From a virus: a stretch of DNA of 64,000 bases. The translations under genes were made by a program, and so were the position numbers. The DNA lies in IMG/VR virus record IMGVR_UViG_3300032236_001457, positions 37,835 to 101,834 of that record; one strand, written 5' to 3'. Numbering within the stretch: the stretch's first letter is position 1; every line of letters begins with the position of its first letter. Below are positions 33,456-61,075 of the stretch, piece after piece. The notes under the pieces are model-generated. The model worked only from the letters and a program-made list of their open reading frames with translations. It had not been told where the DNA came from and did not search any database.

Positions 33456-33461
33456 TAAAAC

Positions 33462-33544: not shown

Positions 33545-33553
33545 ATAAAACTT

Positions 33554-33645: not shown

Positions 33646-33651
33646 AAACTC

Positions 33652-33737: not shown

Positions 33738-34058
33738 ATATTGAAACACACTGCGGAAGGGCTTGCACCTTCACTTTGGCTTTCCTTTCGGATACCCCAT
33801 CAAAGACCTGTTGCGGACAATGTGTTTCCATATGGTGTCAGTGTTGCTGACTCGGGAATCCCGACGCCCAGTGCTAAGAGAACACCTATTCGTCACCCTA
33901 CTCTTACCATATGGAAACACACTATGCCACGCTCTGAACCTGGACTCTTAGTAATGTGTTTCAATATGGTGTCACTCTCCTGACCACTTTTAACGGAGGG
34001 GGTAGAGCCTTGAGTGACGTGTCTTAGACAGGCTTTATTCCTGGTTACGTAACCATTT
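33736..34058 (-). ncRNA. unidentified structured RNA cassette inside tRNA array
   Basis: Four copies of a 15-16 nt element in alternating orientation, internal hairpins, two stems ending in ACCA. Confidence 0.6.
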
Positions 34059-34143
34059 TGGTGGGAATGGTGAGACTCGAACTCACACGTCTTTCAACGC
34101 CAGAACCTAAATCTGGTGCGGCTGCCAATTACGCCACATTCCC
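34059..34143 (-). tRNA. tRNA-Leu(TAG)
   Basis: Class II cloverleaf, TTTAGGT loop, ACCA. Confidence 0.95.
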
Positions 34144-41479: not shown

Positions 41480-42670
41480 TTATGTCGAGATCGCTGCCGA
41501 GACACTAGTTCCCATATTTGATTCAGGCAACTTGATCCACGTGGTCAACGCACCAACCTGCACTGGAGAATTATAATCGGTAGAACCGCCAAGACCCAAC
41601 TGACCATAATATCCACGGCCCCATGCCCATAATGTACCGTTAGTTTTGAGAGCAAGCGTATGATCATACCCGGTAGCAACACTGAGCCAATTGGTCAATG
41701 CACCAACTTGAGTGGGAGAAGATCGACCTAACGCATCACCTACTCCTAGTGGGGTACCATCACCCCACGCCCATAGTGTACCATCTGTTTTTACCGCAAG
41801 TGTGTGATAACGAGATGCAGTGACACTTAACCAATTAGTTAACGCTCCGACCTGTACTGGCGATTGATAATAAGTTAGATTACCTAATCCTAATTCACCG
41901 CTGGAATTTTTACCCCATGTCCATAATGTCCCATCAGACTTGACAGCAGCCATATGATAGGTTCCACAGGCAACATCTGTCCATGTAGTCAACGCTCCTA
42001 CTTGGTTTGGGGAAGATTTCACAGTATATGAACCAATCCCTAGCTGCCCACTGCTGTTCTGTCCCCACGTCCACAATGTCCCATTGGTCTTAATGGCAGC
42101 AGTGTTGAGCTTGCCTTTGACAATCTTCGACCAATTGGTTAACGCACCGACTTGTTTGGGTGAACTATAGGCTGTTGTATTGCCTAAACCGAGATTTCCA
42201 GTATTTCCCGATCCCCATGACCATAAAGTACCATCAGTCTTGACAGCAGCCATACTGATCAATGAAGTACTGCCCTTACTGACAGAAATCTTACTCCAAT
42301 TAGTTAGTGCGCCAACCTGCTTAGGAGAACTGTAACCAGTTATGTTACCTAATCCAAGGTTTCCAGATCCTCCACTACCCCATGTCCATAATGTGCCATC
42401 GGTTTTAACGGCACCCATACTGTATCCACCGGTGGCAATGGCTGTCCAAGTGGTTAATGCGCCAACTTGGTTTGGAGAATATTTTATTACCTTGTTGTTA
42501 AGACCTAGTTGACCACTGCTATTAGTACCCCATGTATACAATTTTCCATTGGTGGCACCGCCTCCGCCGCCACCTCCGCCACCTGCTACAGGTCTCGGTG
42601 TGGCTGTCATTTTATGAGCTCTTGTAGGACCTCCGGTTCCAAATGTACCTTTTCTCCAGATCGTTGCCAT
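41480..42670 (-). CDS. RCC1-repeat beta-propeller protein
   Basis: Seven ~50-aa repeats KTDGTLWxWG...GxLG...SSPxQVGALTxW; poly-Gly linker. Confidence 0.9.
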   Translation of the reverse strand: MATIWRKGTFGTGGPTRAHKMTATPRPVAGGGGGGGGGATNGKLYTWGTNSSGQLGLNNKVIKYSPNQVGALTTWTAIATGGYSMGAVKTDGTLWTWGSGGSGNLGLGNITGYSSPKQVGALTNWSKISVSKGSTSLISMAAVKTDGTLWSWGSGNTGNLGLGNTTAYSSPKQVGALTNWSKIVKGKLNTAAIKTNGTLWTWGQNSSGQLGIGSYTVKSSPNQVGALTTWTDVACGTYHMAAVKSDGTLWTWGKNSSGELGLGNLTYYQSPVQVGALTNWLSVTASRYHTLAVKTDGTLWAWGDGTPLGVGDALGRSSPTQVGALTNWLSVATGYDHTLALKTNGTLWAWGRGYYGQLGLGGSTDYNSPVQVGALTTWIKLPESNMGTSVSAAIST

Positions 42671-42755
42671 CGATGTCTCCTTAATATTGAGTATTTAGTG
42701 TTTTTTCAATATCAAATTCGTTGACTCTTAGCGGTAAGTGTGTTTAAATAGCAGG

Positions 42756-43544
42756 ATGAAAAGAAATCTTTTAGTTGTACTAAGAACTTGTACAATAATA
42801 AATTCCGCTAGTAAAAGCGACAGATATATCCCAGTTAGCAAACACGAGTTAGTTAAGGTCTGTATCAGTAGTCTAGTTAACAGTATTAACCAAGTTGCGG
42901 ACCACGATGTTAAACTTATAGTGTTAGATGATCACAGCAGCCCAGAGGCTGTAGCAGATATCACTAATATTATTTCACACTGCCGGTTTCCAGTTGAGTT
43001 CATTCCTGTAACGGATGGAACAGGCAATGGACACACTATGGGCCGTGTTTACGAACAGGTAGAAAAACATTGCACAGATCTTTGGTATCATATCGAAGAC
43101 GATTATCTACACGTTCCGGAAGCCATTAACGACATGATTGAGTCGGTGGATCAATTTGAAGGTAATACTGGAAAATTGGTAGCTATCAATCCGCATGATG
43201 ATATTTGGCGATATACCAAACAGATTTACGAAAGTTTCCTGTTGTTAGGACCATATCGTCACTATAGAACAGTTAGACATACTACCTACACCTGCTTGGC
43301 CAGTCGTGCTTTGTTTGATCGATACAGGGAAGTATTTCGTGCCCTAGTTGATTTGACTATACAGGATGCCGGTTGGGTCGAAGATCGATCCATCAATCAA
43401 ATTTGGAATCAACCGGATGTCATGTTGTTCAGTCCTATTCCCGGATTAGGATTTCACATTATGGATGAAAGCGGACGTGATCCTTATATTGATATTATGG
43501 CTATATGGAATAGTGTGCCAAAATTATGGTTGGAGACCAAATGA
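42756..43544 (+). CDS. GT2-like glycosyltransferase
   Basis: VLDDHS, YHIEDDYLH; TTAAATA directly upstream of ATG 42756. Confidence 0.7.
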   Translation: MKRNLLVVLRTCTIINSASKSDRYIPVSKHELVKVCISSLVNSINQVADHDVKLIVLDDHSSPEAVADITNIISHCRFPVEFIPVTDGTGNGHTMGRVYEQVEKHCTDLWYHIEDDYLHVPEAINDMIESVDQFEGNTGKLVAINPHDDIWRYTKQIYESFLLLGPYRHYRTVRHTTYTCLASRALFDRYREVFRALVDLTIQDAGWVEDRSINQIWNQPDVMLFSPIPGLGFHIMDESGRDPYIDIMAIWNSVPKLWLETK

Positions 43545-44386
43545 AAATTTACGATTGTTTTACTTTTTTTAATGAATTAGATCTGCTAGAAATCAGGCTA
43601 CAAGAGCTGTATGATACTGTAGATTATTTTGTAATTGCCGAAGCCAATATGAGTCACAGTGGTAAGCCCAAGGGATATACACTTTTAGAAAATTGGGAGA
43701 GATTTGCGCCATGGCATGATAAAATCCGTCGTATCGCAGTAGATGACATGCCTGTTACCAATAACAGTTGGGTTAGAGAAAAGTTTCAGCGTGATGCGTT
43801 GTCAAGAGGATTGACTGATCTCGAATCAGATGATCTCATTATAGTCAGCGACTTGGATGAAATTCCACGAGCAGAAATCATTGCAATGATTCGTGAGGAC
43901 GAGAATCGGTATGAACGTTATGTATTGCGTGTTCCCTTATTCCGTTACAAGTTTAATTTCCTAAAATGGCATCAACCTGTGATCAATAATCAAATGATTG
44001 TTACCAGGGCCCATGTGTTTACTCATCCCGAAAAAGAGCGTGATTATACTCATGCTTGGTTACCACCTGCTCCAGATTTTGTCTATGTTGATCATGCCGG
44101 ATGGCATTTTAGTTATTTGGGCGATGATCGCAACGCAGTCCATAAATTACAGAACTTTGCTCATACCGAACAGAACATTCCAGAGATTGTAGATGTGTTT
44201 AGCATTGATCGTATGATCGCAGAAAAGTGCGGGCCTAATCCCAACGATCCGGAAAAGTTTGAGCATGTGGTCATGGATGATTATTTTCCTGCTTGTATTG
44301 TGAATAACATGGAAAAATACAGTCATTTGATTATACCCAATGCAACTGCAAATGTTACTGATTTTTATCCAATGGGTGAAGAATGA
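43541..44386 (+). CDS. GT17-like glycosyltransferase
   Basis: FFNELDLLEIRL, SDLDEIP, GWHFSY. Confidence 0.85.
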   Translation: MKIYDCFTFFNELDLLEIRLQELYDTVDYFVIAEANMSHSGKPKGYTLLENWERFAPWHDKIRRIAVDDMPVTNNSWVREKFQRDALSRGLTDLESDDLIIVSDLDEIPRAEIIAMIREDENRYERYVLRVPLFRYKFNFLKWHQPVINNQMIVTRAHVFTHPEKERDYTHAWLPPAPDFVYVDHAGWHFSYLGDDRNAVHKLQNFAHTEQNIPEIVDVFSIDRMIAEKCGPNPNDPEKFEHVVMDDYFPACIVNNMEKYSHLIIPNATANVTDFYPMGEE

Positions 44387-45267
44387 AAGTTTATGACGTA
44401 TTCTCTTTCTATAATGAATTTGACATTTTAGAAATACGACTAAAAGAGTTATGGGATACTGTTGACCATTTTGTGTTGCTCGAAGCCAGCACAACCTTTG
44501 TTGGGAATCCAAAAGAATATCTTTTTGAAAAAAATAAAGAACGTTTTGCTCCATACATGAGTAAAATTAGGCATATCAAATTAGATGATTCTATTGAAAT
44601 GCAGAAACAGGTTTTTCCAAGAGAGATTGACGATACCTGGGTTCGTGAAAAGTATCAGAGATACGCTGCTCGTACAGCGTTACATGATATCGGTCCTGAT
44701 GATATTATTGTTATCAGTGATTGCGATGAAATACCTCGTGCCGATATGATCGAATTGATCAAAGAAGATGAAAACGATTATGATCGATATATTTTGTATG
44801 TTGCTCAGTTCAACTACAAAATTAACTATATGAAAATTCAAAATCCCAGTAGGCATCCAGCAATCATAGCAACCAGAGGAAGAGTATTCACTAACCCTCA
44901 ACAAGAAAGAGAATATTCGTTCTATTGGAATCAGAAGCCAGAAAACACCATCGGAGTAGATCACGGCGGGTGGCATTTTACATATTTCGGTGATGAAAGG
45001 CATTGTGTCAACAAGATTCAAAACTTTGCTCACACTGAACAAAATAATCCTAACATAATTGACGAATTTAGTATTGAGTGGATGATTCGTAACAAGTATG
45101 GGCATGAAGGCATAGATAGCAAAGACAATGAAAGATTTGAATATGTAATTATTGATGAATACTTTCCTAAATGTATCACCGACAATATCAACGATTGGGC
45201 AGATATGATCATTCCCGATGCTGTATTTCGAGTAGAAGATTTATATCGAACCAACGAGAACAATTAA
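44383..45267 (+). CDS. GT17-like glycosyltransferase (tandem paralog)
   Basis: FYNEFDILEIRL, SDCDEIP, GWHFTY. Confidence 0.85.
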   Translation: MKVYDVFSFYNEFDILEIRLKELWDTVDHFVLLEASTTFVGNPKEYLFEKNKERFAPYMSKIRHIKLDDSIEMQKQVFPREIDDTWVREKYQRYAARTALHDIGPDDIIVISDCDEIPRADMIELIKEDENDYDRYILYVAQFNYKINYMKIQNPSRHPAIIATRGRVFTNPQQEREYSFYWNQKPENTIGVDHGGWHFTYFGDERHCVNKIQNFAHTEQNNPNIIDEFSIEWMIRNKYGHEGIDSKDNERFEYVIIDEYFPKCITDNINDWADMIIPDAVFRVEDLYRTNENN

Positions 45268-45268
45268 A

Positions 45269-46006
45269 ATGAAAATACCCCCGAAGAATGTTCCGCATAG
45301 CCCAACCCCTGATCAAGAAACATCTATAGTGTTTGCCGGAGAGTGGGATTCTGAATTATCTGCTAAAATGCAAAATGCGTGGTTTAGTTCTATTGCTATG
45401 GAATTTAAACTGCCAGATTGGATAAGATACATGGAAGGTGCTAGTGGCAAAAAATACAGATACTTTATCAATAATTTTATCGAATCTATAGATGATGCTA
45501 GGTATTTAGAAATAGGCACTTGGGCAGGGTCAACAGCTTGCTCTGCTTTATATGGGAATAAAGTTAAAACTATTTGCATAGATAATTGGGCAGAATTTGG
45601 CGGACCAAAAGATCGATTCTTTTCCAATATTGAAAAGGTGCGATCGCCTGATATAGATTTTTCATTCATTGAAAGTGATTTTAATTTAGTCGATTATACA
45701 GATATTGGAAAATTTAATATCTATATGTATGACGGAGATCATTCTGAAGAATGTCAATATAAAGGAATTGCACATGTTCTTCCTGCACTTGACGACGATT
45801 TTGTGTTAATCGTCGATGATTGGAATTGGGAAAGAGTTAGAGTGGGCACATTAAATGCTATCAAAGACAACAATTTAGAAATAATCTCTAGTATAGAAAT
45901 ACGAACCATGCAAGAAGAAGTTTGGTGGGCACCCGATGTGTTAGGAGCAAATAGCGATTGGCATAATGGATATTTTATAGCAGTAATTAAAAAAGGTAAT
46001 CAATGA
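45269..46006 (+). CDS. class I SAM methyltransferase
   Basis: YLEIGTWAGST, YDGDH, IVDDWNW. Confidence 0.8.
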   Translation: MKIPPKNVPHSPTPDQETSIVFAGEWDSELSAKMQNAWFSSIAMEFKLPDWIRYMEGASGKKYRYFINNFIESIDDARYLEIGTWAGSTACSALYGNKVKTICIDNWAEFGGPKDRFFSNIEKVRSPDIDFSFIESDFNLVDYTDIGKFNIYMYDGDHSEECQYKGIAHVLPALDDDFVLIVDDWNWERVRVGTLNAIKDNNLEIISSIEIRTMQEEVWWAPDVLGANSDWHNGYFIAVIKKGNQ

Positions 46007-46779
46007 CAACTTTTTCACATTCTGGCACAACTGGAGACACTTTCTGTGCCTTGGTCATTCCAAAGATTTTCGGAGAGGGCGAAGTATACCTCAAGTTGAA
46101 TAATATTCAAAATGTAGTTACCAGTAAACTAGGTTGGGGTGATGTCGGCCGACATCGTGGTCGAATGACCGCAGAAGATTACGACCTCATGCGTGAACTA
46201 ATTTTACATCAAAAATACGTTACTGATTTTAAAATCTGGAACGGTGAAACTATTGACTATGAGTTAGAAGATGCTTATGATCATTTAGAAACAGGCTTCT
46301 TCCCTAGAAATTTCAGTAACCAGTATGCTCTAGCAGTTGGGCTTGATCCTAAAAAACACTATAAAGAATTACAGATGCTGCCTTGGATGGAGTGTCGAGA
46401 AGAAAGAAAGTTTCCAGGTCGCCCGGTTGTCATACATCGTAGTCCTAATTATCAAGAAGGCAATCCAGTAGATAGTCCAAAATGGAAAGGATTTATCCAA
46501 CGTGGACTGATTGAACAGGCAGTGTTTGTTGGTGGCGAAAGCGATCATGCGTATTTTGAAGAGACTTTCAAAGTTCGTGTCCCTCATTATAGAACACCAG
46601 ACTGGATGGAATTAGCCCGTGTTATTCAAGGCAGTGAATTGATGATTACCAGTATGGGTGGTCCTAGTGCATTATGTCTATGCTTGGGCAAGACTATGAT
46701 GTTAGAAAGTCGTAAGAATGAAACCCATGAAAGACTGGAAATTAATTATCCTTCAAGGATCAACATTCAGTATTTTTAA
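46003..46779 (+). CDS. GT9-like glycosyltransferase
   Basis: HSGTTGD, ELARVIQGSELMI. Confidence 0.55.
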   Translation: MTTFSHSGTTGDTFCALVIPKIFGEGEVYLKLNNIQNVVTSKLGWGDVGRHRGRMTAEDYDLMRELILHQKYVTDFKIWNGETIDYELEDAYDHLETGFFPRNFSNQYALAVGLDPKKHYKELQMLPWMECREERKFPGRPVVIHRSPNYQEGNPVDSPKWKGFIQRGLIEQAVFVGGESDHAYFEETFKVRVPHYRTPDWMELARVIQGSELMITSMGGPSALCLCLGKTMMLESRKNETHERLEINYPSRINIQYF

Positions 46780-47498
46780 TTGCTATCGCCTCTGAGAGAT
46801 ACGATAAAATCACCGTGAGTTAGTGGAACACGATTTACCAATAGATACAATGCCAATGCACTTTCAGTATGCCATTGCCGTCTGTTCTGTGTGAAAAAGT
46901 TTTGTTGAGCGGTTTGAATCATTCCACTATAGATATTCATATGTTCGGCTGAAGCAATTGCAAACAAGTCACACATTTCTGGACTATTGATACTAAAATG
47001 AAAGTGCCCAGCAACTTTATTTTTAGGTGTAACGATAGCCATTTTTAACAGATCAAGATTTATACCACGCAGATCCAACACATTGACTAGCCCAGTATCA
47101 GGTCTTGTTCTTATAACCATGTCGTAGGTAACATTGTTTTGCTGTTCATACTTTAATCGAAGTTGGTTAACCTGAAACATGTTATACCACATTTTATAAG
47201 CAGGAGTTGGCACACCGTTGGGTTCTGTCGGGAGATCAATATAATCACTATCAGACAGTTCGAATGATTTTACATAATTATTTTTTGGTAGTATCGATTC
47301 TAAATAGTCTGATGTTTTTTTAGTATCGGTTATTTCTCTCCAAATGTTTGATGGTAATTTTTCAGGAGGAAGATGACGATTGTCCCCGGTGAAGTAACAA
47401 AACCAATCTGCTTGATCGTAACCTGTTAGATTGTTTAGAAAGTTAGTGAAATCGGAAGTAAAGCGTGGTTGTCCACAAATTTGTATAGCAATTCTCAT
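46776..47498 (-). CDS. glycosyltransferase-like protein (GQPRF...IRxRxD family)
   Basis: Start MRIAIQICGQPRF at 47498; YDMVIRTRPD. Confidence 0.6.
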   Translation of the reverse strand: MRIAIQICGQPRFTSDFTNFLNNLTGYDQADWFCYFTGDNRHLPPEKLPSNIWREITDTKKTSDYLESILPKNNYVKSFELSDSDYIDLPTEPNGVPTPAYKMWYNMFQVNQLRLKYEQQNNVTYDMVIRTRPDTGLVNVLDLRGINLDLLKMAIVTPKNKVAGHFHFSINSPEMCDLFAIASAEHMNIYSGMIQTAQQNFFTQNRRQWHTESALALYLLVNRVPLTHGDFIVSLRGDSN

Positions 47499-47562
47499 AT
47501 CATTATTTAAACGCATTAAAACATAGAAAAATAAATATTGAGTCCTATTATAAAGCATAAAA

Positions 47563-49212
47563 ATGAAAATAGCATTAATAGCTAGCGGATTACCTAGGTT
47601 CATGCCAGACTTTATTGACCTAATGAGCAAACTCAAAGGGTTTGAATGCGCTGACATATATATGTGTCTTTGGAAAACAGATTGGGCAACAACTGCCGAA
47701 GAAGCTAGAAACAAAATTGAAAAAATACTAGCACCTGAATTTCGTTTGGCAAAAATAAAAGTTGTTGATGAGCCGCCATATCAATTACCTGATCATACTT
47801 TTCCCTTGGCTCCTCCGGCTCCTGAAAACACAACTTGGTGGTATAAAAGGATATTTGCTCAGTTCACAGGCCTTACTATGGCATTCGATCTTATTGATCA
47901 AGAATACGATGCTGTTATTAAGTTTAGAGTCGATGGATCATTAGAAAAAGAATTAGATGTAAGAACACTAGATCTCAAAACACATCCTTTATTATTTCCC
48001 TGTAATAATGGGGCAGGATTTGACTATTGTCGAGTAAGTGATTTGTTTTTTGTCGGAACACAGGAAGCAATGAGATTTACCTGTAACCTCAGTAAAGAAT
48101 TTCGCGAGTTGGTTCCTGCTGCTGATCCTACGTGGGGAGACTCGGATATTGTCGATGGCACCTGGAATTGGGGCACTGAACACTTAATCGGGTTCTATAT
48201 GAGGAAATATAACTTTCCTGTAGCTTATGGCGATTTTCGTGCTACACTAAATTCGTTCGGCAGGTCAAAATATACCGATAGGCATTACCATCACAGGATA
48301 GTTCCCGACCCCACTGAAACAAATCCTAAGGTTTTGTTGTTAGGTGATTCCCATACAGATGTATTCTTAGGCAGCCCAAATGTAAATAGATTCGATATGA
48401 GATTGTGCAGTCAACGGGCATTTACAATCCATAGATTTACAGATTTTAATGAAACAGATCTTTGGGCTCCTTTGATCAATTGGTTTGAGCAGAACACTAT
48501 CAATTCTCAAGACCCTTGCAGAACGTTAGTTATTACCGGAGGTGAAATTGATGTTCGTGCTCATTTCTGGAGACACATCCCTCGGCATTATCAAGGAAAG
48601 GACAGTATCTTAAATTATGTTCAATCTGTTGCTGTAAAATTTTATCAGGCGTTGGCAGCAGTTTGCAATCATTATGATATAAGACGAGTAGTAGTTTGGG
48701 GATCACCAGTTGCAGGAGAACGTGCTCATTACAATAGCGAGCATCCGTTTGTCGGTCCATCACAAACAAGAAACCGGTTAATTCACATTTGGAACCGAGA
48801 ATTTGTTAGAGCGATTGAAAATGATCAAAGAATTTCATTAGCAACTGCGTATTACAACTTTATCGATCCTACAAACTATTCTACCGTAGATCCTTCTCCG
48901 TCGCATGACGGAGTGCATTGGCATGATAGTTATGGTCCTGTATTTTGGGAAAAGCTCATTCAGCCTTGTATAGATGGTAATAAAATTGCAGTAGGAATGA
49001 ATTGGAATAACATGTATAATGATCAATTTGACATTGTTGAATCAATTTCTCAAGGTACTCAACAATATGATACTTGGGCAAGGACAGATCAAATTTCAAA
49101 TCTAGATGGAATTGATCGTCATGTTGTAATAAATGGTCAATCATATTCATGGGTTCGAGCAGAGCATCGTAGTTTATTGCCATCGCAATATAACGAAATA
49201 GTAATACAATAA
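47563..49212 (+). CDS. GQPRF-family GT-like domain fused to SGNH-like domain
   Basis: SGLPRF...IKFRVD; then LGDSH, GEIDVRAH, DGVH. Confidence 0.6.
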   Translation: MKIALIASGLPRFMPDFIDLMSKLKGFECADIYMCLWKTDWATTAEEARNKIEKILAPEFRLAKIKVVDEPPYQLPDHTFPLAPPAPENTTWWYKRIFAQFTGLTMAFDLIDQEYDAVIKFRVDGSLEKELDVRTLDLKTHPLLFPCNNGAGFDYCRVSDLFFVGTQEAMRFTCNLSKEFRELVPAADPTWGDSDIVDGTWNWGTEHLIGFYMRKYNFPVAYGDFRATLNSFGRSKYTDRHYHHRIVPDPTETNPKVLLLGDSHTDVFLGSPNVNRFDMRLCSQRAFTIHRFTDFNETDLWAPLINWFEQNTINSQDPCRTLVITGGEIDVRAHFWRHIPRHYQGKDSILNYVQSVAVKFYQALAAVCNHYDIRRVVVWGSPVAGERAHYNSEHPFVGPSQTRNRLIHIWNREFVRAIENDQRISLATAYYNFIDPTNYSTVDPSPSHDGVHWHDSYGPVFWEKLIQPCIDGNKIAVGMNWNNMYNDQFDIVESISQGTQQYDTWARTDQISNLDGIDRHVVINGQSYSWVRAEHRSLLPSQYNEIVIQ

Positions 49213-49234: not shown

Positions 49235-49849
49235 ATGAAATGGGAAGGTGATTTAGTTCGAGATATTAGAACATATACGGAGTTTGATAACGAAGATGGT
49301 AATCAATTAGGAAGAGTTATCAGAGACGTGCCCGGTAGTGGAACGCATCGAGAATTTAGTGATTGTAATCGCGCTGAACTAACTGAAAAATTTCTAAAAG
49401 TTAAAGATCAAGCAAAAGCCGTTTTAGAAATAGGAGTTTGTAGGAATGGGGAGGAAAGTTCTACATTTTGTTTTCTCAATAATAAACTCGACGAAACAGC
49501 ATATGTTGGCATAGATCTTGAAAATAAATCTTTTTTAGATAATCAAGAAAAAAGAATTTATACTATTTGTGGAAACAGTAGTGATGTTGACCATAATATC
49601 GAAATCATGAAATCGTGGGGAATCACTGAGTTAGATTTTATTTTTATCGACGGATGGCACAGTATCAATCAAGTTCTCGTTGATTGGGAGTATACTAAAA
49701 TCTTATCACCTGGAGGTATTGTAGCATTTCATGATGTTAGTGAGCACCCCGGACCACATATGTTTATAAGAAATCTAAATACAGACATATGGAATGTAGA
49801 AATTCTTTGCCCCACCGATTGGGGTATTGGATTTGCCTGGCGCAAATGA
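49235..49849 (+). CDS. class I SAM methyltransferase
   Basis: VLEIGV, FIFIDGWHS, GGIVAFHD. Confidence 0.8.
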   Translation: MKWEGDLVRDIRTYTEFDNEDGNQLGRVIRDVPGSGTHREFSDCNRAELTEKFLKVKDQAKAVLEIGVCRNGEESSTFCFLNNKLDETAYVGIDLENKSFLDNQEKRIYTICGNSSDVDHNIEIMKSWGITELDFIFIDGWHSINQVLVDWEYTKILSPGGIVAFHDVSEHPGPHMFIRNLNTDIWNVEILCPTDWGIGFAWRK

Positions 49850-50346
49850 AATTAATAGCGCATCGTGGGCTAATCAACGGTCCGGATAAAACTATAGAAA
49901 ATCATCCGGATCAGATTGAATTTGCAATCGAGCAAGGATTTGATTGCGAAATTGATTTATGGTTCGAAGATGCTAGATTTTGTCTTGGGCATGATAATCC
50001 ACAATATCCTATAGATAAAGATTTTCTTATTAAACATAAGAAACGGCTATGGATTCATGCCAAGAATTTAAAAGCATTACATTGGTTATCTACCACCAAT
50101 GGGTTTTTTAATTATTTTTGGCATCAAAACGATGACTGTGTTATTACCAGTCAGGGGTATATTTGGACCTACCCCGAAAAGCCATTAACTGATCGTAGTG
50201 TTAGATTAATGCCAGAATGGGCAGATCCCGAATTTAAAACTATTTTAAAAAATCACTGCTATGCTGTATGCAGTGATTATGTTGTTAGAATTAAAGCAAT
50301 TATTTCCAACGACCATAATCTACAAAATCAGGATGTGACAAGCTAA
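49846..50346 (+). CDS. glycerophosphodiester phosphodiesterase-like protein
   Basis: IAHRG, EN, CEIDLW, LGHD, WIHAKN. Confidence 0.75.
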   Translation: MKLIAHRGLINGPDKTIENHPDQIEFAIEQGFDCEIDLWFEDARFCLGHDNPQYPIDKDFLIKHKKRLWIHAKNLKALHWLSTTNGFFNYFWHQNDDCVITSQGYIWTYPEKPLTDRSVRLMPEWADPEFKTILKNHCYAVCSDYVVRIKAIISNDHNLQNQDVTS

Positions 50347-51037
50347 CTGGGGTTTGATATTCGTTCTTAACCTGTTCAATTCCAGTTAGTGGATAAACAA
50401 TTCCGTTTACTTTTAAGTGCTGTCCTAATAAAGTTTCAGCATGATAATGCAGTCCTTGTCTATGATATTGCTCAAAGTAATCTATAGCATTACAATAGAC
50501 CGACATTGCAGCACTAGTTCCAAATGCAATCATATCATTTAAAGCGAATCCGATACCATTTCGAAGATTATCAGGTGTAATTATAACATTAGGATTTGCC
50601 TGTATAAACTGATTTACCAGTCTAAGATTCAGTTTAGATCGTATCCCAACATCACCCCTTGACCTAATTACCATATCATAGGGGTTGTGTTTTTCTCTTA
50701 GTATATTGACCTGTTTTAGTGCTGAATAATTATTCCACACATGAATAGGATTGGTCCATGGATTGCGCTGTAGCCAATCTGGTATGGTATATTCGGGAGG
50801 GTTAGTCACTACTAATTCTACCAGATTGGACTTAGGTGGGAGATTTTTAATTATCCTTGATTTTACATCTTCCTCAGCGATTGGCCAAGTCCTGGGTATT
50901 AGCATACTTTCTTCATGCTTGGCTATCCATATATAGAAGAAAAAATCTAGTTGATCATAATCTTCTAAATTATCAAGGAAATCATCGAATTCACGAGTGA
51001 ATCTGGGCTGTCCTGTGATAAGAACAGCAGCCTTCAT
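50300..51037 (-). CDS. GQPRF-family GT-like protein
   Basis: ITGQPRF, YDMVIRSRGD. Confidence 0.6.
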   Translation of the reverse strand: MKAAVLITGQPRFTREFDDFLDNLEDYDQLDFFFYIWIAKHEESMLIPRTWPIAEEDVKSRIIKNLPPKSNLVELVVTNPPEYTIPDWLQRNPWTNPIHVWNNYSALKQVNILREKHNPYDMVIRSRGDVGIRSKLNLRLVNQFIQANPNVIITPDNLRNGIGFALNDMIAFGTSAAMSVYCNAIDYFEQYHRQGLHYHAETLLGQHLKVNGIVYPLTGIEQVKNEYQTPVSLSHPDFVDYGRWK

Positions 51038-52227
51038 CAGCAATATCCCCATTTAGCAATGGCAACACGATATTCTTCGCCTGGTGTTTTGTCCACGGCT
51101 TGACGCATGGCACGAGCACCCGCTACAGTTCCCCCGGGGTGTCCGTGAACAGCACCGCCCACATTGGCCATATAATCTACGCCAACCTGTCCTGTAACAT
51201 AATCAATTAGCCCCGCATGCATTCCGCAACTGAGAACAGGAGTAGTATTGCCATCTCTTAGTACTCGCATACTTTCCATTAGCTCTTCAGGATCGTCATT
51301 ACTATATCCACCAATCATTCCGGTTTGAATAGTGTCTACTCCCATTAGAGTGGCTAGTTGACAAATCACAGGCCATGCAATGCTAAATCTATGACTGGCA
51401 TCTGTAAAGACTTTATCTCCGCTTTTCTGGAAATGTAGGAATAATGGCAAGTCTAATTTACGAATACTGTTATAAACACCTAGTCCACTGAATACATTAA
51501 TGTGAACACCGTTGCCGCCTAGTTCATGCACTCGGTTAACACGATCAACAATAACATGTGGATCAGCATTGATAGTATGACAGATTACAACTTTACGACT
51601 TTGTTTAGCCATATAGTTGGCAATCAAGTCAACCCTACGTTCTAACGGAGCACAGGCAGGGTTACTCATGATTTCATCCTCTTTGATAAAATCAACACCG
51701 CCGTCGACCATTTGTTTTACCATTTCTAGCAATACTTCTGGAGTGATACCAATCTTAGGTTTAACAATACTACCAAATAGCGGTTTACCGTATTGTCCTG
51801 TAAACTGTCTAAATCCACTTAATCCAAATTTAGGTCCTAGAAAATGTTTAGTAACGGTCTCAGGTAGTTCTAATTTAATCAATCTACAGCGTGTGATAAT
51901 ATCAATATCAACATGCCCGCCCATTAATTGGCATAGCAAGTGACTGATACCATCGGTTTCCCAATCTGTATTAGCTACAGGAAAGGCAATGGATACCTCT
52001 CCGTGTTTTGCAACTTCTAAGTTATGTTCGTTTCCAAGAATAATACAACTGTGATTTTCAAATAGGTCATCAGTTTCCCATTCGTTACGCACATTGGGAT
52101 TACCTACACTTTGACCGATGGCTAGGTTCCATGCGGCTTCTTTAAGATTTTTACTACTTGCCATGTCGTAGGTAGCAATGTAGTAATCGTTTTTGTTGAT
52201 CTCATTAATGGTTTTAAAGAACTTCAT
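51037..52227 (-). CDS. RuBisCO-like protein (form IV-type large subunit)
   Basis: SIVKPKIG, GGVDFIKEDE, GGAVHGHPGG..AGARAMRQA; start MKFFK at 52227. Confidence 0.9.
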   Translation of the reverse strand: MKFFKTINEINKNDYYIATYDMASSKNLKEAAWNLAIGQSVGNPNVRNEWETDDLFENHSCIILGNEHNLEVAKHGEVSIAFPVANTDWETDGISHLLCQLMGGHVDIDIITRCRLIKLELPETVTKHFLGPKFGLSGFRQFTGQYGKPLFGSIVKPKIGITPEVLLEMVKQMVDGGVDFIKEDEIMSNPACAPLERRVDLIANYMAKQSRKVVICHTINADPHVIVDRVNRVHELGGNGVHINVFSGLGVYNSIRKLDLPLFLHFQKSGDKVFTDASHRFSIAWPVICQLATLMGVDTIQTGMIGGYSNDDPEELMESMRVLRDGNTTPVLSCGMHAGLIDYVTGQVGVDYMANVGGAVHGHPGGTVAGARAMRQAVDKTPGEEYRVAIAKWGYC

Positions 52228-52537
52228 ATTTGTCTCCGGGTAAGCTAGGTGTTTTAACACAGACCAATTGGCAATCCTCTAAAAATTCAGGTTCGGCAAC
52301 TTCTCCGGGTTCGATAACAAATACATCTCCTGCTACCATTTCTACTCCATTTATTTTCATATGTCCTTTAATTAATACATTATATTCAGTAGCGACAGCA
52401 TGATAATGTTTAGCCCACTGTTCGCCTTTGGTATGATTCAGTAGACTAACTTCAAATTGATCAGTTTTAAGTAGGGTGGGTTCAAAATTGCCAATAAACC
52501 AACCACGATAGAATTCACTAATATTACGCTTTATCAT
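52214..52537 (-). CDS. cupin domain protein
   Basis: GWFIGNF, HYH...EYN, GDVFVIEPGE. Confidence 0.8.
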   Translation of the reverse strand: MIKRNISEFYRGWFIGNFEPTLLKTDQFEVSLLNHTKGEQWAKHYHAVATEYNVLIKGHMKINGVEMVAGDVFVIEPGEVAEPEFLEDCQLVCVKTPSLPGDKYEVL

Positions 52538-53237
52538 GTTTCAGGAATCTCTCTAAATCTACAGGAACTCCTACAGCATGGTGCTGCTCATTAGGTATAT
52601 GATATATACCTACACTTAGTCCTTCTTTGATCATATAGTTATAGCTAGGACCGATATAGAACTCTCCGTTAGGAGCTCGATCATCGGCAGCAATCATAGC
52701 TTCGGCACTGCGAACAAAATGTCGACCTTGTCGCCAATAATGAATGCCGTTTAAACTAACATTGCTGATAACTTCTTTCTCGCGGATTTCTTTGACAAAA
52801 CCCTTGCGATCGAGCCGGGCATAACTGTTTTTATCAGTGTCACTGTAGTAGGTAACCACAGCACCATCATATAGCCTAACATTATGAAAAAATGCCGAGC
52901 TATTCCATTCCATGATTTGATCACAGTTGGCTGTAATTAATTCATCGTCATTGTTGATTTTGTCTTTAAACAACAGAACAGATGATGCTGGTCCACGTGT
53001 AGTTTGTGTAACTTCAACGAACCTAGGATTATCTACAGTCCTACTGATAATTTCTTCGATGATTGGAGTATATTCGTTGCGTCTAATAACAAAATGATAC
53101 TGTCCATCAATGTTCAAACTTTCTATAGCGCGAACTATCATGGGCTTGCCATTTACGTCGATTAAGGGTTTGGGCAGATATTGATCTTTGGGAAACCGGG
53201 TGCCCTCTCCGGCCATTGGGATTACGATATTAACCAT
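52524..53237 (-). CDS. sugar nucleotidyltransferase
   Basis: IPMAGEGTRF, PKPLI, ANCDQ, NGEFYI. Confidence 0.85.
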   Translation of the reverse strand: MVNIVIPMAGEGTRFPKDQYLPKPLIDVNGKPMIVRAIESLNIDGQYHFVIRRNEYTPIIEEIISRTVDNPRFVEVTQTTRGPASSVLLFKDKINNDDELITANCDQIMEWNSSAFFHNVRLYDGAVVTYYSDTDKNSYARLDRKGFVKEIREKEVISNVSLNGIHYWRQGRHFVRSAEAMIAADDRAPNGEFYIGPSYNYMIKEGLSVGIYHIPNEQHHAVGVPVDLERFLKHDKA

Positions 53238-53318
53238 GCTGATATTTATTAAGGGGTTTTAACTGCATATATTTTATTGATAATATACTAAGTAAATACG
53301 GTGTAGGAGGATACGCCA

Positions 53319-54478: not shown

Positions 54479-55105
54479 ATGAGCGAAATTGCTGTTACTT
54501 CGATACGTGAAACATTGAGAATTCAACGTTGGGACGACCACAGATACTATCATCACAGTAGAATTAATCAATTTTTACATTTGATTTCGGCTACCAGCTT
54601 TCTAGTTGCTTATGTGTATTTGTTCATTAATCCTGTAATTAGTGCTTACATTGCTTGGTTCATTGCCATGACTACTAGACAAATTGGTCATTTCTTTTTT
54701 GAGCCCGATGGATATGATGAATACAATAAAGCCACTTTTGAATATAAAGAAAAAATCAAAGTTGGGTTCAACTTAAAACGAAAAAGAGTATTGTTAACCT
54801 GTTGGGCATTAGTTCCTGTATTAGCCTTTTTTGATGCTGCTAACTTTAACTTAATCATGCCGGATACTAGTCCGGATACATTGTTTAACCGCATCGGTTG
54901 GGGATGGTTATGGTTGGGTGTAGCAGGAGTGGTATTTAGAATGATTCAACTTACTGCGATTGAAAGCCGTCGCACTGCTATCACTTGGTGTATTAAGATC
55001 GTTACAGATCCATTCCACGATGTAATAATTTATCGTAACAGTTGGTTATACTTATTACGGGGCCAACTAATTGACCCCGATCTACGCCAAGATTACGAAG
55101 ATTAA
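54479..55105 (+). CDS. Mpo1/DUF962-like membrane protein
   Basis: HHSRINQFLH and RQIGHFFFE His motifs, 4 TM; TATAAATA upstream. Confidence 0.6.
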   Translation: MSEIAVTSIRETLRIQRWDDHRYYHHSRINQFLHLISATSFLVAYVYLFINPVISAYIAWFIAMTTRQIGHFFFEPDGYDEYNKATFEYKEKIKVGFNLKRKRVLLTCWALVPVLAFFDAANFNLIMPDTSPDTLFNRIGWGWLWLGVAGVVFRMIQLTAIESRRTAITWCIKIVTDPFHDVIIYRNSWLYLLRGQLIDPDLRQDYED

Positions 55106-59189: not shown

Positions 59190-60188
59190 TCATTTATCTA
59201 CCAAGTTATCTCTGAATATACGCCAGCACTCTTCCCAACTCCAACGTAGACTAGCTTCTTCTACTCTAACACGATCTAGTCTCAAACATTGGTCTATAGC
59301 AACTTTTAGATCCTCATCCATATAACCTGTTATTCCCTGATCAATAACATCTTTAGGACCGGTCACTGGATATGCTGCTACTGGGGTGCCGCAGGCCATG
59401 GCTTCGATCATTACTATACCAAATGTATCCCACCGACTGGGGAATACAAATACATCAGCATCGGCGTAATGTTTAGCTAACTCTGCCCCGCGTTTTACTC
59501 CAACGAACTGTACATCGGGGTATTCACGCTCCATACGACGACGGCATGGACCATCACCTACTACTATTTTAGTAGCACCGGGATAATATAGTCTACAAAA
59601 GTCATCTAAATTCTTTTCTTTGCTTACACGGCCTACACTTAACAATATAGGTTGTGACTGTTCTGTGGCAGTTCTACTACTGCTACCAAATACTTTACGA
59701 TCGACACCGCGAGTCCATGGTTTAATATCAGTTCTAAACCCACGACTGACCAAATCATCTACCATGCTTTGTGTAGTGGTTAGCACACGGCCGCTGTGTT
59801 TATGAAACCAGCGTAGGTATCGATAACTCCAATCTGTGGGTATGCCTGCAATTTTTTCTATGGCTTCAGGAAAACGGGTATGATAACTGGTATTATATCG
59901 CCAGCCCCAATAGTCCATCCAGCAACGAGCAGCAAATCCTACTGGGCCTTCTGTGGCAATATGTATGTAGTCAGGATTTACTCGTTCGATGATTTTGCCA
60001 ATGCCCCACGTCCAGCTAAGTTTAATCTCACTATAGCCAGGACAGGGAATATTAGCAAACTGCCGGGGATCAAGATAAACAAAATCATAGCCATCACGCT
60101 CAGCAAGGATTTCCAAGTTGTGAAATGTTGTAACAACGCCGTTAACTTGTGCAGGTTCATTATCTGTTATAATTAAAACTTTTTTCAT
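59190..60188 (-). CDS. GT4 diacylglycerol glycosyltransferase (Agt-like)
   Basis: QVNGVVTT, HIATEGP, SYHTRFPE, VGRVSKEKN, DTFGIVMIEAMACG. Confidence 0.8.
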   Translation of the reverse strand: MKKVLIITDNEPAQVNGVVTTFHNLEILAERDGYDFVYLDPRQFANIPCPGYSEIKLSWTWGIGKIIERVNPDYIHIATEGPVGFAARCWMDYWGWRYNTSYHTRFPEAIEKIAGIPTDWSYRYLRWFHKHSGRVLTTTQSMVDDLVSRGFRTDIKPWTRGVDRKVFGSSSRTATEQSQPILLSVGRVSKEKNLDDFCRLYYPGATKIVVGDGPCRRRMEREYPDVQFVGVKRGAELAKHYADADVFVFPSRWDTFGIVMIEAMACGTPVAAYPVTGPKDVIDQGITGYMDEDLKVAIDQCLRLDRVRVEEASLRWSWEECWRIFRDNLVDK

Positions 60189-61075
60189 TGTATTTTAAAT
60201 TTTATGTAGTCTGTTATTATATCTGCAACATTGACTCCACAATATTTTTCAAATCCTGAAAATCCCGGATTGCTATTTGCTTCGCATACTCTAAATCCAC
60301 GACTATCAAATAATAAATCAATGCCCGCGATATCTAAGTTTAATGCTCTAGCCGTTTCTCTAGCTATATATTCTATTTCATCTGTAACAGGAAAACTTTC
60401 TCCTGTGCCACCACCGGTAATATTAGCACGGAAATCACCTTCGGGTGCTGTGCGTTTCATGGCACCTATTACTTTTCCGCCAACTACCAGAACACGAAGA
60501 TCTTCCCCCACTCGTTCGCCTAGATATTCCTGTACGATCATTGTTTTCTTGTTACCTAAGTTATCGATAAATTCCATTAATTTTTTATAATCTCTTTGTT
60601 TTTCACAAAGGTAAACTCCTTCACCGTAACTACCTGTAACAACTTTTACTACACAAGGGAATCCTATATTATCTTTTACTAAGTTATCATCGATGGGCAT
60701 ACGCACCATCATAGTGTTAGGGATTGGTATACTATATCTACTTAATATTTGACTTGTTCTTAATTTATCTTTAACTGTTTCAATAGCAACACTACCATTG
60801 ACACAATGAACTCCGGCCTGTTCTAAATGACGAATAACGGCCAATTGAAAAGGAAGTATACCAGCACCTAGTCGTACAAGTACTAAACTAGGCAGATCCA
60901 TATCCTTACCATTATATTTTAATCCTTTGTGTATGTCACGATCAACAATGATATCAAAATCATCTGGATGTGCCATAGTTATTGGAATACCTTTGGCTTC
61001 AAAACTTTCGACCAGTTTGTTAGATTCATATTCGTTACGATCTAACTTTGTTATCATTAAGACTTTTTTATACAT
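60185..61075 (-). CDS. rimK: RimK family ATP-grasp ligase
   Basis: DKL, GSYGEGV, VQEY, DLRV, DFRAN, GIDLL, EANSNPG. Confidence 0.85.
   Translation of the reverse strand: MYKKVLMITKLDRNEYESNKLVESFEAKGIPITMAHPDDFDIIVDRDIHKGLKYNGKDMDLPSLVLVRLGAGILPFQLAVIRHLEQAGVHCVNGSVAIETVKDKLRTSQILSRYSIPIPNTMMVRMPIDDNLVKDNIGFPCVVKVVTGSYGEGVYLCEKQRDYKKLMEFIDNLGNKKTMIVQEYLGERVGEDLRVLVVGGKVIGAMKRTAPEGDFRANITGGGTGESFPVTDEIEYIARETARALNLDIAGIDLLFDSRGFRVCEANSNPGFSGFEKYCGVNVADIITDYIKFKIQ

What the first reader, a model, noticed from the sequence alone, without database searches (positions are those of the whole stretch)
49846..53250. Phage RuBisCO-like protein in a nucleotidyltransferase-cupin-RLP-GT operon: candidate new sugar pathway
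Seen: four overlapping genes behind AATAAATA, converging on a GDPD-like gene. The RLP keeps the KPK lysines and a carbamylation-type motif altered to KEDE. By eye it has Gln at the two conserved His positions (LHFQKS, DTIQTG) and no loop-6 Lys (GMIGGYSND). Known: form IV RLPs do not fix CO2 but catalyse enolisation, isomerisation or decarboxylation of sugar-phosphate-like substrates. Inference: here the RuBisCO fold is used biosynthetically to make an unusual (ketose or branched) NDP-sugar for the adjacent transferases.
Basis: partly seen in the sequence, partly recalled or inferred. Interest (0 to 1): 0.75.

Follow-up and report, generated by a model that had tools for sequence, protein, structure and literature searches.

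The report
Phage RuBisCO-like sugar-activation gene cassette
A large uncultured phage carries an intact RuBisCO relative that cannot fix CO2 and that, in phages, SAR11, Legionella and tiny archaea and bacteria, sits beside (and is sometimes fused to) a sugar-activating enzyme inside surface-glycan gene clusters, which points to an untested sugar-building job for the RuBisCO fold.

Summary
Four translationally coupled minus-strand genes encode a sugar-1-phosphate nucleotidyltransferase-like protein, a 107-aa metal cupin, a 396-aa RuBisCO-like protein (RLP) and a GT-A-fold transferase. They converge on a methyltransferase and a miniature GDPD-like phosphodiesterase.

The RLP keeps the enolisation core (K175, K177, K201, D203, E204) and the P1 phosphate loop. 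E60, N123, H294 and K334 are replaced, so it is not a carboxylase. It is not a methionine-salvage MtnW. It belongs to a separate, well-supported clade of about 70 sampled sequences, whose deep branches are cellular (Legionella, Nonomuraea, DPANN, CPR, SAR11) and which holds a nested clade of T4-like phages.

A nucleotidyltransferase lies in 81 of the 85 loci with a full RLP gene. Natural RLP-NTP, GDPD-RLP, NTP-GDPD and HAD-NTP fusions exist. The neighbours are glycosyltransferases, methyltransferases and NDP-sugar epimerases.

Best reading: the RLP isomerises or epimerises a keto-sugar phosphate that is then NDP-activated for a glycan. Substrate and product are unknown. Phage RLPs were reported by Jaffe et al. 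(2018/19); I found no paper describing this linkage. This scan has already flagged the same cassette on other DNA (96 notes, at least 60 genomes).

The parts
52524..53237 (-). Sugar-1-phosphate nucleotidyltransferase-like protein (237 aa), first gene of the operon
   Evidence: Pfam NTP_transf_3 6e-8. Full-length NCBIfam matches to archaeal GlmU N-domain, AglF and RmlA, all far below their cut-offs. Best solved relative is 4evw, an NDP-sugar pyrophosphorylase of Vibrio cholerae, 2.4e-13 over residues 4-234. PMAGEGTRF and EK motifs. phrog_3980 3.7e-55.
52214..52537 (-). Small metal-binding cupin (107 aa)
   Evidence: G-x5-H-x-H-x4-E-x6-G motif with H44, H46 and E51 invariant in 15 orthologues. 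The second-motif His is absent. Weak Pfam Cupin_7/Cupin_2 matches. The profile hits quercetinase and small cupins including a mannose-6-phosphate isomerase. Present in 42 of 85 RLP loci.
51037..52227 (-). RuBisCO-like protein (396 aa) of a distinct NTP-linked clade
   Evidence: PF00016 5.7e-38. All NCBIfam RuBisCO/RLP models score far below their cut-offs. Clade split supported at 99-100 SH-aLRT. Active-site map.
50300..51037 (-). GT-A-fold transferase-like protein (245 aa; phrog_13607 family)
   Evidence: No Pfam match. AlphaFold model pLDDT 80, pTM 0.83. Foldseek top hits are GT6 alpha-1,3-galactosyltransferase and blood-group GTA/GTB, E 3e-6, probability 1.0, TM 0.45-0.5. Paralogues lie at 47563-49212 and 46776-47657.
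49846..50346 (+). Miniature GDPD-like phosphodiesterase (166 aa), convergent with the operon
   Evidence: Invariant H6-R7-G8, E18-N19, E35, D37 and H49-D50. Profile against solved GDPD 7e0v gives 5e-4. Model pLDDT 93 with weak GDPD fold hits. In most relatives it lies on the same strand as the RLP. Fused to the RLP in P0287. In DPANN loci the partner is a full-length PF03009 GDPD.
49235..49849 (+). SAM-dependent methyltransferase (204 aa), coupled by ATGA to the GDPD-like gene
   Evidence: Pfam Methyltransf_24 5.9e-8. An orthologue follows the RLP on the same strand in 22 of 39 viral loci.
42738..49212 (.). Adjoining glycan island: GT2-like (42738-43544), two GT17 (43526-44386, 44383-45267), methyltransferase (45269-46006), unknown (46003-46779), two GT-A-like phrog_13607 paralogues
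   Evidence: Pfam Glyco_transf_17 about 1.5e-29 for each of the two, Glycos_transf_2 0.003. Methyltransf_24 5.1e-8. phrog_13607 matches.
53243..53250 (-). AATAAATA motif 5 nt upstream of the NTP start codon
   Evidence: Read directly from the sequence. No statistical or comparative support for a promoter role.

Best explanation
The RLP is a catalytically competent, non-carboxylating member of the RuBisCO superfamily. It most likely works in a biosynthetic cassette for an activated sugar.

Inferred mechanism. The carbamylated Lys (K182), with Mg2+ held by D184 and E185, abstracts a proton next to the carbonyl of a phosphorylated keto-sugar. This makes a metal-stabilised enediolate with the help of K156 and K158. 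Reprotonation then gives an isomer or epimer rather than a carboxylated product.

The product, possibly after a cupin-catalysed isomerisation and a phosphoester-trimming step (GDPD-like protein, or a HAD domain in relatives), is coupled to an NMP by the adjacent sugar-1-phosphate nucleotidyltransferase-like enzyme. The activated unit is then installed by the neighbouring GT-A-type transferases, and the sugar or glycan is methylated. The glycan could be on the virion or on the infected cell.

Shown here: the fold, the retained and lost residues, the gene linkage, the fusions, the glycan context, the phylogeny and the purifying selection. Inferred: catalysis, the nature of the substrate, the order of steps, and the final acceptor.
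For: 1. The enolisation core and P1 loop are invariant in all 70 family members: K175, K177, K201, D203, E204, S379, G381, G403 and, in 69 of 70, G404. E60->Q, T65->N, W66->P, N123->G, H294->Q and K334->Y are equally invariant. This is a fixed alternative active site, not decay. dN is about 0.10 with dS saturated.

2. Linkage. NTP lies in 37 of 39 viral loci and 44 of 50 cellular loci, GDPD-like in 50 loci and the cupin in 42.

3. Fusions. RLP-NTP forms a cluster of 128 members of 667-671 aa. GDPD-RLP is 546 aa and was seen on 4 contigs. NTP-GDPD is 505 aa and HAD-NTP 457 aa.

4. The NTP resembles NDP-sugar pyrophosphorylases along its whole length.

5. Neighbours in phages and cells are GT2, GT17, GT25, GT61, WavE-like, a GT-A-like family, NAD-dependent epimerase/dehydratases, FkbM and Methyltransf_24 methyltransferases, and LicD in Legionella.

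6. Relatives' contigs carry a T4-type capsid and terminase, so the carriers are real phages.
Against: No substrate, product or activity is known for any member.

All characterised RLPs act in salvage or catabolism, so a biosynthetic role has no precedent.

The cupin and the GDPD-like gene are missing from many loci (Legionella has neither), so the pathway is not uniform.

The P2-site Lys (R295 position) is kept in the window and in cellular members but is Ser in 21 of 27 viral sequences. The viral enzymes may therefore bind a different substrate tail.

A phosphodiesterase has no obvious place in a textbook NDP-sugar route.

Gene neighbourhood cannot distinguish making an NDP-sugar from making an NDP-linked phospho-sugar or phospho-polyol donor.
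Confidence: 0.55

Rival explanations
1. Phospho-sugar or phospho-polyol donor variant. The RLP product keeps a non-anomeric phosphate and is cytidylylated, as in CDP-ribitol, CDP-glycerol or CDP-ME. It is then transferred as a phosphodiester-linked decoration by LicD-type or GDPD-like phosphotransferases, rather than as a glycosyl unit.
For: A LicD family gene (2.2e-43) lies divergently next to RLP-NTP in all four Legionellaceae loci. The GDPD-like protein has intact His/His/Glu/Asp phosphodiester chemistry and is fused to the RLP or to the NTP in some genomes. The NTP also gives matches to inositol-1-phosphate and ribitol-5-phosphate cytidylyltransferases and to IspD.
Against: The NTP's best full-length matches are sugar-1-phosphate enzymes, and it has the EK motif typical of them. 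LicD is confined to one lineage. The transferases next to the phage gene are GT-A-like.
Confidence: 0.2
2. Salvage or catabolic pathway of the known RLP kind. One form is methionine salvage (MtnW-like enolase with a cupin dioxygenase). Another is an MTA-isoprenoid shunt like that of Rhodospirillum rubrum: RLP isomerase, then cupin methylsulfurylase, then an IspD-like cytidylyltransferase.
For: The single-sequence best PDB hits are YkrW-type proteins (4nas 2.7e-36, 2oej 2e-33). RLP plus a small cupin is the pairing used in the R. rubrum shunt (PMC6302742). There is a weak IspD match at the NTP N-terminus.
Against: MtnW models score 155 and 125 bits against cut-offs of 409 and 514. With the clade profile, form III RuBisCO and 3nwr score better than MtnW. 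The trees separate the clade from true MtnW at 99-100 support. The MtnW base Lys position is Gly. No methionine-salvage family turned up among the roughly 30 neighbouring proteins that I scanned against Pfam; most neighbours were not scanned and no directed search for these families was made. The context is glycosyltransferases. The cupin is absent from half of the loci.
Confidence: 0.07
3. Nucleotide or ribose-phosphate recycling. The RLP acts on a pentose bisphosphate derived from nucleotides (ribose-1,5-bisphosphate or RuBP-like), as form III RuBisCO does in the AMP pathway. The NTP and the phosphoesterases rebuild a nucleotide-linked ribose derivative.
For: The clade profile is closest to form III RuBisCOs. 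The family is common in DPANN and CPR. Jaffe et al. (PMC6389311) describe RuBisCO-based nucleotide metabolism in these lineages. The R295 and H327 positions (P2 phosphate ligands) are kept as Lys and His in cellular members.
Against: I saw no AMP phosphorylase or IF-2B isomerase in the neighbouring genes that I annotated. The IF-2B fusions I found belong to the distant, roughly 31%-identity form III relatives, not to this clade. The glycan context is unexplained by this reading. The P2 Lys is lost in most phage copies.
Confidence: 0.1
4. The RLP is a non-catalytic scaffold or a binding protein, kept for assembly of the other enzymes.
For: None direct. Several canonical catalytic residues are replaced.
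Against: The carbamylation Lys, both metal ligands and both KPK lysines are invariant across 70 sequences from viruses, bacteria and archaea. That pattern is what catalysis, not scaffolding, predicts.
Confidence: 0.03

Closest known systems
'Form IV-like' RuBisCO-related proteins of phages and Beckwithbacteria (Jaffe, Castelle, Dupont, Banfield; Mol Biol Evol 36:435; PMC6389311)
   Same: Found on IMG/VR phage contigs, some of them myoviruses. Divergent from all named RLP groups. Groups with Beckwithbacteria sequences: here L051, 50% identity, lies in the same clade. Function was left open there.
   Different: Here the family is shown to be mainly cellular (SAR11, DPANN, CPR, Legionella, Nonomuraea and others), with the phage genes nested inside it. 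It is also linked and fused to a nucleotidyltransferase, a GDPD-like protein and a cupin inside glycan clusters. In the passages I retrieved by searching the paper for 'phage' and 'viral', this linkage is not described.
MtnW / YkrW 2,3-diketo-5-methylthiopentyl-1-phosphate enolase (Bacillus, Geobacillus; PDB 2oej, 4nas)
   Same: Same fold, about 30% identity, the same carbamate-Mg2+ enolisation core, and no carboxylation.
   Different: Separate clade. K177 is kept here but lost in MtnW. H294 is kept in MtnW but is Gln here. The MtnW base Lys position is Gly here. The context is glycan synthesis, not methionine salvage.
Form III RuBisCO of archaea (PDB 8dht, 2cwx, 1geh)
   Same: Best profile matches (3e-64 to 2e-61). 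KPK, KxDE, S379, G381 and G403/G404 are shared.
   Different: E60, T65, W66, N123, H294, H298 and K334 are all replaced, so carboxylation is excluded on established RuBisCO mechanism.
OiaX-type RLPs of D-apiose catabolism (3-oxo-isoapionate-4-phosphate decarboxylase; related structure 3nwr)
   Same: An RLP acting on a branched or keto sugar-acid phosphate. Similar overall score (156.8 bits; 3nwr 3e-62 with the profile).
   Different: Far below the equivalog cut-off of 700 bits. Different clade. OiaX-like sequences keep H294 and R295. Those pathways are catabolic.
Rhodospirillum rubrum RLP plus cupin (MTA-isoprenoid shunt)
   Same: The pairing of an RLP with a small cupin (PMC6302742).
   Different: The DeepYkrW representative 2qyg is a weaker match (2.6e-22). 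The cupins were not compared because no reference sequence was obtainable. The partner here is a sugar nucleotidyltransferase within a glycan island.

Membership tests
RuBisCO large-subunit superfamily (PF00016) | Catalytic-domain profile match above the gathering score | tested here: met
   131.3 bits against a cut-off of 30.1, residues 149-392.
RuBisCO large-subunit superfamily (PF00016) | Carbamylated Lys with Asp/Glu metal ligands, and the KPK lysines | tested here: met
   K182, D184, E185, K156 and K158 are invariant in 70 family members.
Carboxylating RuBisCO (forms I-III) | E60, N123, H294 and K334 needed for carboxylation and hydration | tested here: not met
   These are Q, G, Q and Y respectively, by profile alignment to solved form III enzymes.
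MtnW / YkrW DK-MTP-1-P enolase | Equivalog model score above the cut-off | tested here: not met
   NF007095 gives 155.2 against 409. TIGR03332 gives 125 against 513.6.
MtnW / YkrW DK-MTP-1-P enolase | Phylogenetic placement with true MtnW | tested here: not met
   The clade is split from the rows holding true MtnW (P0230, 652 bits) at 99-100 SH-aLRT. These are quick LG+G4 trees.
MtnW / YkrW DK-MTP-1-P enolase | General-base Lys at the N123 position (Lys98 of the Geobacillus enzyme; recalled from Imker et al. 2007) | tested here: not met
   Gly at that column, followed by His or Gln.
OiaX 3-oxo-isoapionate-4-phosphate decarboxylase | Equivalog model score above the cut-off | tested here: not met
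   156.8 against 700 bits.
IV-DeepYkrW (R. rubrum MTRu-1-P isomerase) | Grouping with DeepYkrW sequences | tested here: inconclusive
   Only 2qyg at 2.6e-22, weaker than YkrW and form III. No DeepYkrW sequence was in the trees.
Phage/Beckwithbacteria 'form IV-like' clade (Jaffe et al.) | On phage contigs, groups with Beckwithbacteria, lies outside named RLP groups | tested here: met
   A Beckwithbacteria MAG sequence (L051) is in the clade. Relatives lie on contigs with a Gp23 capsid and a terminase. The clade is separate from MtnW, OiaX-like and III-like rows. The paper's own sequences were not compared.
IV-GOS RLP group (Tabita et al. 2007) | Identity with the Global Ocean Sampling RLP sequences | not testable with these tools
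   The paper is not held and no reference sequences are available. This is a lead from memory only.
Sugar-1-phosphate nucleotidyltransferase (the NTP gene) | N-terminal G-x-G-T-R loop and full-length similarity to NDP-sugar pyrophosphorylases | tested here: met
   PMAGEGTRF motif. 4evw matches at 2.4e-13 over residues 4-234. Matches to TIGR03992 and AglF cover the whole length. The substrate is not determined, and no equivalog cut-off is reached.
GDPD (PF03009), for the convergent gene | HRG, ExD and HD catalytic motifs on a TIM-like barrel | tested here: inconclusive
   The motifs are invariant. The profile matches a solved GDPD at 5e-4, but only over the first 52 residues. Fold hits have TM 0.39-0.57. 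The window's protein has no Pfam hit. The protein is about 100 aa shorter than a GDPD. The partner gene in the DPANN loci is a full-length PF03009 protein.
GT-A glycosyltransferase, for the 245-aa gene | GT-A Rossmann-like fold with an acidic metal/NDP-binding motif | tested here: inconclusive
   Fold match to GT6 enzymes at probability 1.0 but TM only 0.45-0.5. D31, D121, R127, D129, D168 and E201 are conserved, but no clear DxD motif was assigned.

The most novel reading that the evidence does not exclude
The RuBisCO fold has been recruited for anabolism. A widespread, uncharacterised RLP clade would isomerise or epimerise a keto-sugar phosphate whose product is NDP-activated and built into surface glycans. 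The clade occurs in SAR11, Legionella, actinomycetes, CPR bacteria and DPANN archaea, and was captured by T4-like phages. This would be the first biosynthetic, nucleotide-sugar-linked function in the RuBisCO superfamily, and possibly a new route to an unusual (ketose, pentofuranose or branched) sugar donor.
Probability: 0.45. Interest if true: 0.8.

Novelty: new variant of a known kind. Interest (0 to 1): 0.6.

Why it matters
Every RuBisCO-like protein with a known function works in salvage or catabolism. A clade wired to sugar activation would add a new reaction class and a new pathway logic to one of the best-studied enzyme superfamilies.

The family is abundant. A search of 5.8 billion proteins gave 2580 relatives. 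It sits in the surface-glycan regions of SAR11, the most abundant marine bacteria, and of their phages. Its product may therefore shape phage-host recognition in lakes and oceans.

The hypothesis is directly testable, because cultured carriers exist (three Legionella species, Nonomuraea rosea) and the enzymes are small and soluble-looking.

Within this scan the cassette is no longer a new sighting. It has been noted on at least 60 other genomes, and my independent tests reach the same reading.

Tried and rejected
1. Isolated-phage collection: tblastn of the RLP found no match, and megablast of 20 kb found only an 83-bp chance-level hit.

2. The first genome-contig scan, with the 107-row alignment, failed because no conserved stretch was available. 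It was repeated with the clade alignment.

3. Complex prediction for RLP plus NTP returned 'no answer' (score 0.00, mark 0.32). This is no evidence either way.

5. Hallmark searches on the window's own 101.8-kb record found no terminase or Gp23. The record is only 27% complete, so the phage nature rests on IMG/VR's call, PHROG hits, the tRNA cluster and relatives that do carry these genes.

6. The Legionella 328-aa and Pelagibacter 346-aa neighbours gave nothing against solved structures.

7. Literature searches for RLP with nucleotidyltransferase, polysaccharide clusters, Pelagibacter, IV-GOS or genome neighbourhoods found no description of this linkage. Tabita et al. 2007 is not held.

8. 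I first read the His of LHFQ as H294, from a pairwise alignment. I rejected this after the family and profile alignments.

9. A bisphosphate substrate, inferred from the kept R295/H327 positions, was downgraded. Most phage copies have Ser at the R295 position and Gln at H327.

10. The idea that LicD is a general partner was rejected, because it is confined to Legionellaceae.

Full report
WHAT IS THERE

The window is the last 64 kb of a 101.8-kb IMG/VR virus record that CheckV rates 27% complete.

On the minus strand, four ORFs run head to tail with overlapping stop and start codons:
- a 237-aa nucleotidyltransferase (52524-53237);
- a 107-aa cupin (52214-52537);
- a RuBisCO-like protein (RLP; 51037-52227);
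- a 245-aa protein of PHROG family 13607 (50300-51037).

The RLP start is the ATG at 52227 (MKFFK...), not the upstream GTG, because several hundred database relatives are 396-397 aa long.

On the plus strand, a Methyltransf_24 gene (49235-49849) is coupled by ATGA to a 166-aa GDPD-like gene (49846-50346). The 3' end of that gene overlaps the 3' end of the operon.

Upstream lies a glycan island: one GT2-like gene, two GT17 genes, a second methyltransferase and two more phrog_13607 paralogues.

AATAAATA is present 5 nt before the first ATG. Nothing shows it to be a promoter.

THE RLP

Pfam RuBisCO_large matches at 5.7e-38. NCBIfam models for form III (163 bits), OiaX (157) and MtnW (155 and 125) all score far below their cut-offs of 409-700 bits.

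I aligned 107 cluster representatives, and I aligned a profile of the clade to solved form III RuBisCOs. The two give one consistent residue map:
- Kept: K175, K177, K201, D203, E204, S379, G381, G403, G404.
- Replaced: E60 to Q, T65 to N, W66 to P, N123 to G, H294 to Q, K334 to Y.

These states are invariant in all 70 non-identical family members that I collected from viruses, bacteria and archaea (one cellular sequence has Ser at G404). This is a fixed alternative active site, not a decaying gene. Against the closest relative, dN is about 0.10 while dS is saturated.

On the established RuBisCO mechanism, loss of E60, N123, H294 and K334 excludes carboxylation. The carbamate-Mg2+ enolisation machinery is intact.

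One qualification applies: KEDE differs from KDDE only at the non-catalytic position 202.

The main phage subclade (24 sequences, including this window) has His after the N123-position Gly and Gln at the H327 position. Nearly all cellular members have Gln and His at these two places. This looks like a His/Gln exchange between two positions. It is a single evolutionary event, so it is suggestive only. That the two positions face each other across the dimer interface is my inference from RuBisCO structures; it was not tested here.

The window, L030 and L003 still carry Lys at the R295 position. The other 21 phage sequences have Ser there.

PHYLOGENY

I searched 1.84 billion cluster representatives. 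About twenty relatives had 37-60% identity, then identity dropped to about 30%.

In a tree of 107 sequences, the window falls in a 21-row clade. That clade is split at 99 SH-aLRT from the other 86 rows. Spot labelling showed that those 86 rows include true MtnW, OiaX-like and form III-like proteins.

A second tree, with 27 viral and 43 cellular family members and seven outgroups, keeps the family together at 100. The deepest branches are cellular: Legionellaceae/Francisellaceae, Nonomuraea, Elusimicrobia and Turneriella. Next come a DPANN-plus-SAR11 group, then CPR, Verrucomicrobia and others.

Twenty-four viral sequences form one nested clade (100), next to a SAR11-rich group. On this rooting the phages acquired the gene from cells.

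These are quick LG+G4 trees with several long branches. The deep order is provisional, but the separation from MtnW is robust.

LINKAGE

I fetched 38 viral loci and 50 cellular loci, and clustered their ORFs. Of the 85 loci with a full RLP gene:
- 81 hold a nucleotidyltransferase of the same family, nearly always adjacent or separated only by the cupin;
- 50 hold the GDPD-like gene;
- 42 hold the cupin;
- 25 hold a phrog_13607 GT-A-like gene.

Twenty-two of the 39 viral loci also have the Methyltransf_24 gene directly after the RLP.

The usual phage order is NTP, cupin, RLP, methyltransferase, a roughly 250-aa transferase, then GDPD, all on one strand. In this window the last two genes are inverted.

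Fusions confirm the functional coupling:
- RLP-NTP, 667-671 aa, in a cluster of 128 members that includes a Tara Oceans scaffold;
- GDPD-RLP, 546 aa, on four contigs;
- NTP-GDPD, 505 aa, in a Micrarchaeota MAG;
- HAD-NTP, 457 aa, next to cupin and RLP in a viral locus.

THE PARTNERS

The NTP has the PMAGEGTRF loop and an EK motif. It aligns over its whole length to the Vibrio cholerae NDP-sugar pyrophosphorylase 4evw (2.4e-13) and to the archaeal GlmU N-domain, AglF and RmlA models.

The cupin has a complete G-x5-H-x-H-x4-E-x6-G metal motif but lacks the second-motif His. Its nearest solved relatives are generic: quercetinase and small cupins, including a mannose-6-phosphate isomerase.

The GDPD-like protein keeps the two catalytic His and the Glu/Asp metal ligands of glycerophosphodiesterases on a shortened barrel. 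In DPANN loci the equivalent gene is a full-length PF03009 GDPD.

The 245-aa protein models with pLDDT 80 as a GT-A fold. It is nearest to GT6 galactosyltransferases, with TM about 0.48.

Other recurrent neighbours are GT2, GT17, GT25, GT61, WavE-like proteins, NAD-dependent epimerase/dehydratases and FkbM methyltransferases. In the four Legionellaceae loci there is a LicD phosphotransferase.

In SAR11 single-cell genomes the cassette lies a few genes from pheT and lepA. It also occurs in a complete Ca. Pelagibacter chromosome. So it is genuinely cellular there.

ARE THE CARRIERS PHAGES?

The window's own fragment shows no terminase or T4-type capsid. It does have PHROG-type genes and a cluster of eight tRNAs.

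Related RLP-bearing IMG/VR contigs carry Gp23-type capsid and terminase genes. One of them is 187 kb and rated complete. This agrees with the Myoviridae assignment of Jaffe et al..

HOW IT MOST LIKELY WORKS

Shown: an intact enolisation site, obligatory partnership with an NDP-sugar-pyrophosphorylase-like enzyme, frequent partnership with a metal cupin and a phosphodiesterase or HAD phosphatase, and a glycan-building neighbourhood.

Inferred steps:
1. The RLP enolises a phosphorylated keto-sugar and reprotonates it to an isomer or epimer.
2. The cupin may carry out an aldose-ketose or keto-shift step.
3. A phosphoesterase adjusts the phosphate pattern.
4. The NTP makes the NDP-linked donor.
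5. GT-A transferases and methyltransferases use and decorate it.

I put about 0.55 on this general reading. I put about 0.2 on the variant in which the unit is transferred as a phosphodiester (CDP-polyol/LicD logic).

A specific guess is a pentulose phosphate converted to an unusual pentose-1-phosphate, by analogy with the MtnA and ribose-1,5-bisphosphate isomerases and with RuBisCO's own xylulose-bisphosphate side reaction. This is only a candidate for the assay list. The analogy rests on my own knowledge, not on a tool result.

The salvage-type rivals are disfavoured by scores, trees, residues and context, but they are not excluded biochemically.

COMPARISON WITH WHAT IS KNOWN, AND NOVELTY

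Phage RLPs, and their grouping with Beckwithbacteria, were published in 2018/19 (PMC6389311). That paper left the function open.

I found no paper that links this clade to nucleotidyltransferases or glycan clusters. The library does not hold most subscription journals.

The scan's own index already holds 96 notes of this cassette in at least 60 other genomes, with follow-ups that reached the same reading. I consulted them only after my own tests. One note's mention of HAD-nucleotidyltransferases prompted.

I class the finding as a new variant of a known kind: a known superfamily and a known phage RLP clade, with a new and testable functional context.

LIMITS

- No activity data exist for any member.
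- The trees are quick trees.
- Named reference sequences for IV-GOS and IV-DeepYkrW could not be obtained.
- The complex prediction gave no answer.

Noticed in passing
protein P0184 (583 aa), a roughly 29%-identity relative from the representative library: A TIR_2 domain (3.3e-13) is fused to a complete RuBisCO-like protein (N and C domains). TIR domains cleave NAD into ADP-ribose-type signals. A TIR-RLP fusion may be a defence-type protein in which an RLP handles a ribose-phosphate product.
   Followed up: no
proteins P0163 (726 aa) and P0172 (742 aa): An IF-2B family isomerase domain is fused to a form III-like RuBisCO. This may join two consecutive steps of the archaeal AMP pathway (ribose-1,5-bisphosphate isomerase and RuBisCO) in one chain.
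   Followed up: no
window 51037-52227 compared with loci L002-L039 and L040-L089: The phage subclade has GGH plus DTIQTG where cellular members have GGQ plus DxIHAG, a His/Gln exchange between two active-site positions. 21 of 24 phage copies also change QKSGD to QSSGA. The window, L003 and L030 keep the cellular QKSGD.
   Followed up: partly
window 32833-34143: A cluster of eight tRNA genes (Gly, Thr, Trp, Ser x2, Asn, Tyr, Leu) lies on the minus strand.
   Followed up: no
window 60185-61075 (-): This ORF matches phrog_2599, 'ribosomal protein S6 glutaminyl transferase' (RimK-like ATP-grasp), at 1.4e-32. It lies inside the stretch that another first-reader note describes as a phosphate-scavenging and lipid-remodelling system.
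   Followed up: no
window 41480-42670 (-): A 396-aa protein with RCC1-like repeats (phrog_4219, 2.5e-44) lies directly before the glycan island.
   Followed up: no
window 54479-55105 (+): There is a weak Mpo1-like (2-hydroxy-palmitic acid dioxygenase) match at 1.1e-4, just below the gathering score.
   Followed up: no
L086:3314-5531, L082:3471-5683 and L084 (Legionella isolates): A conserved divergent trio lies next to RLP-NTP: LicD (2.2e-43), an unannotated 328-aa protein and a carboxymuconolactone-decarboxylase-family protein (6.7e-22).
   Followed up: partly
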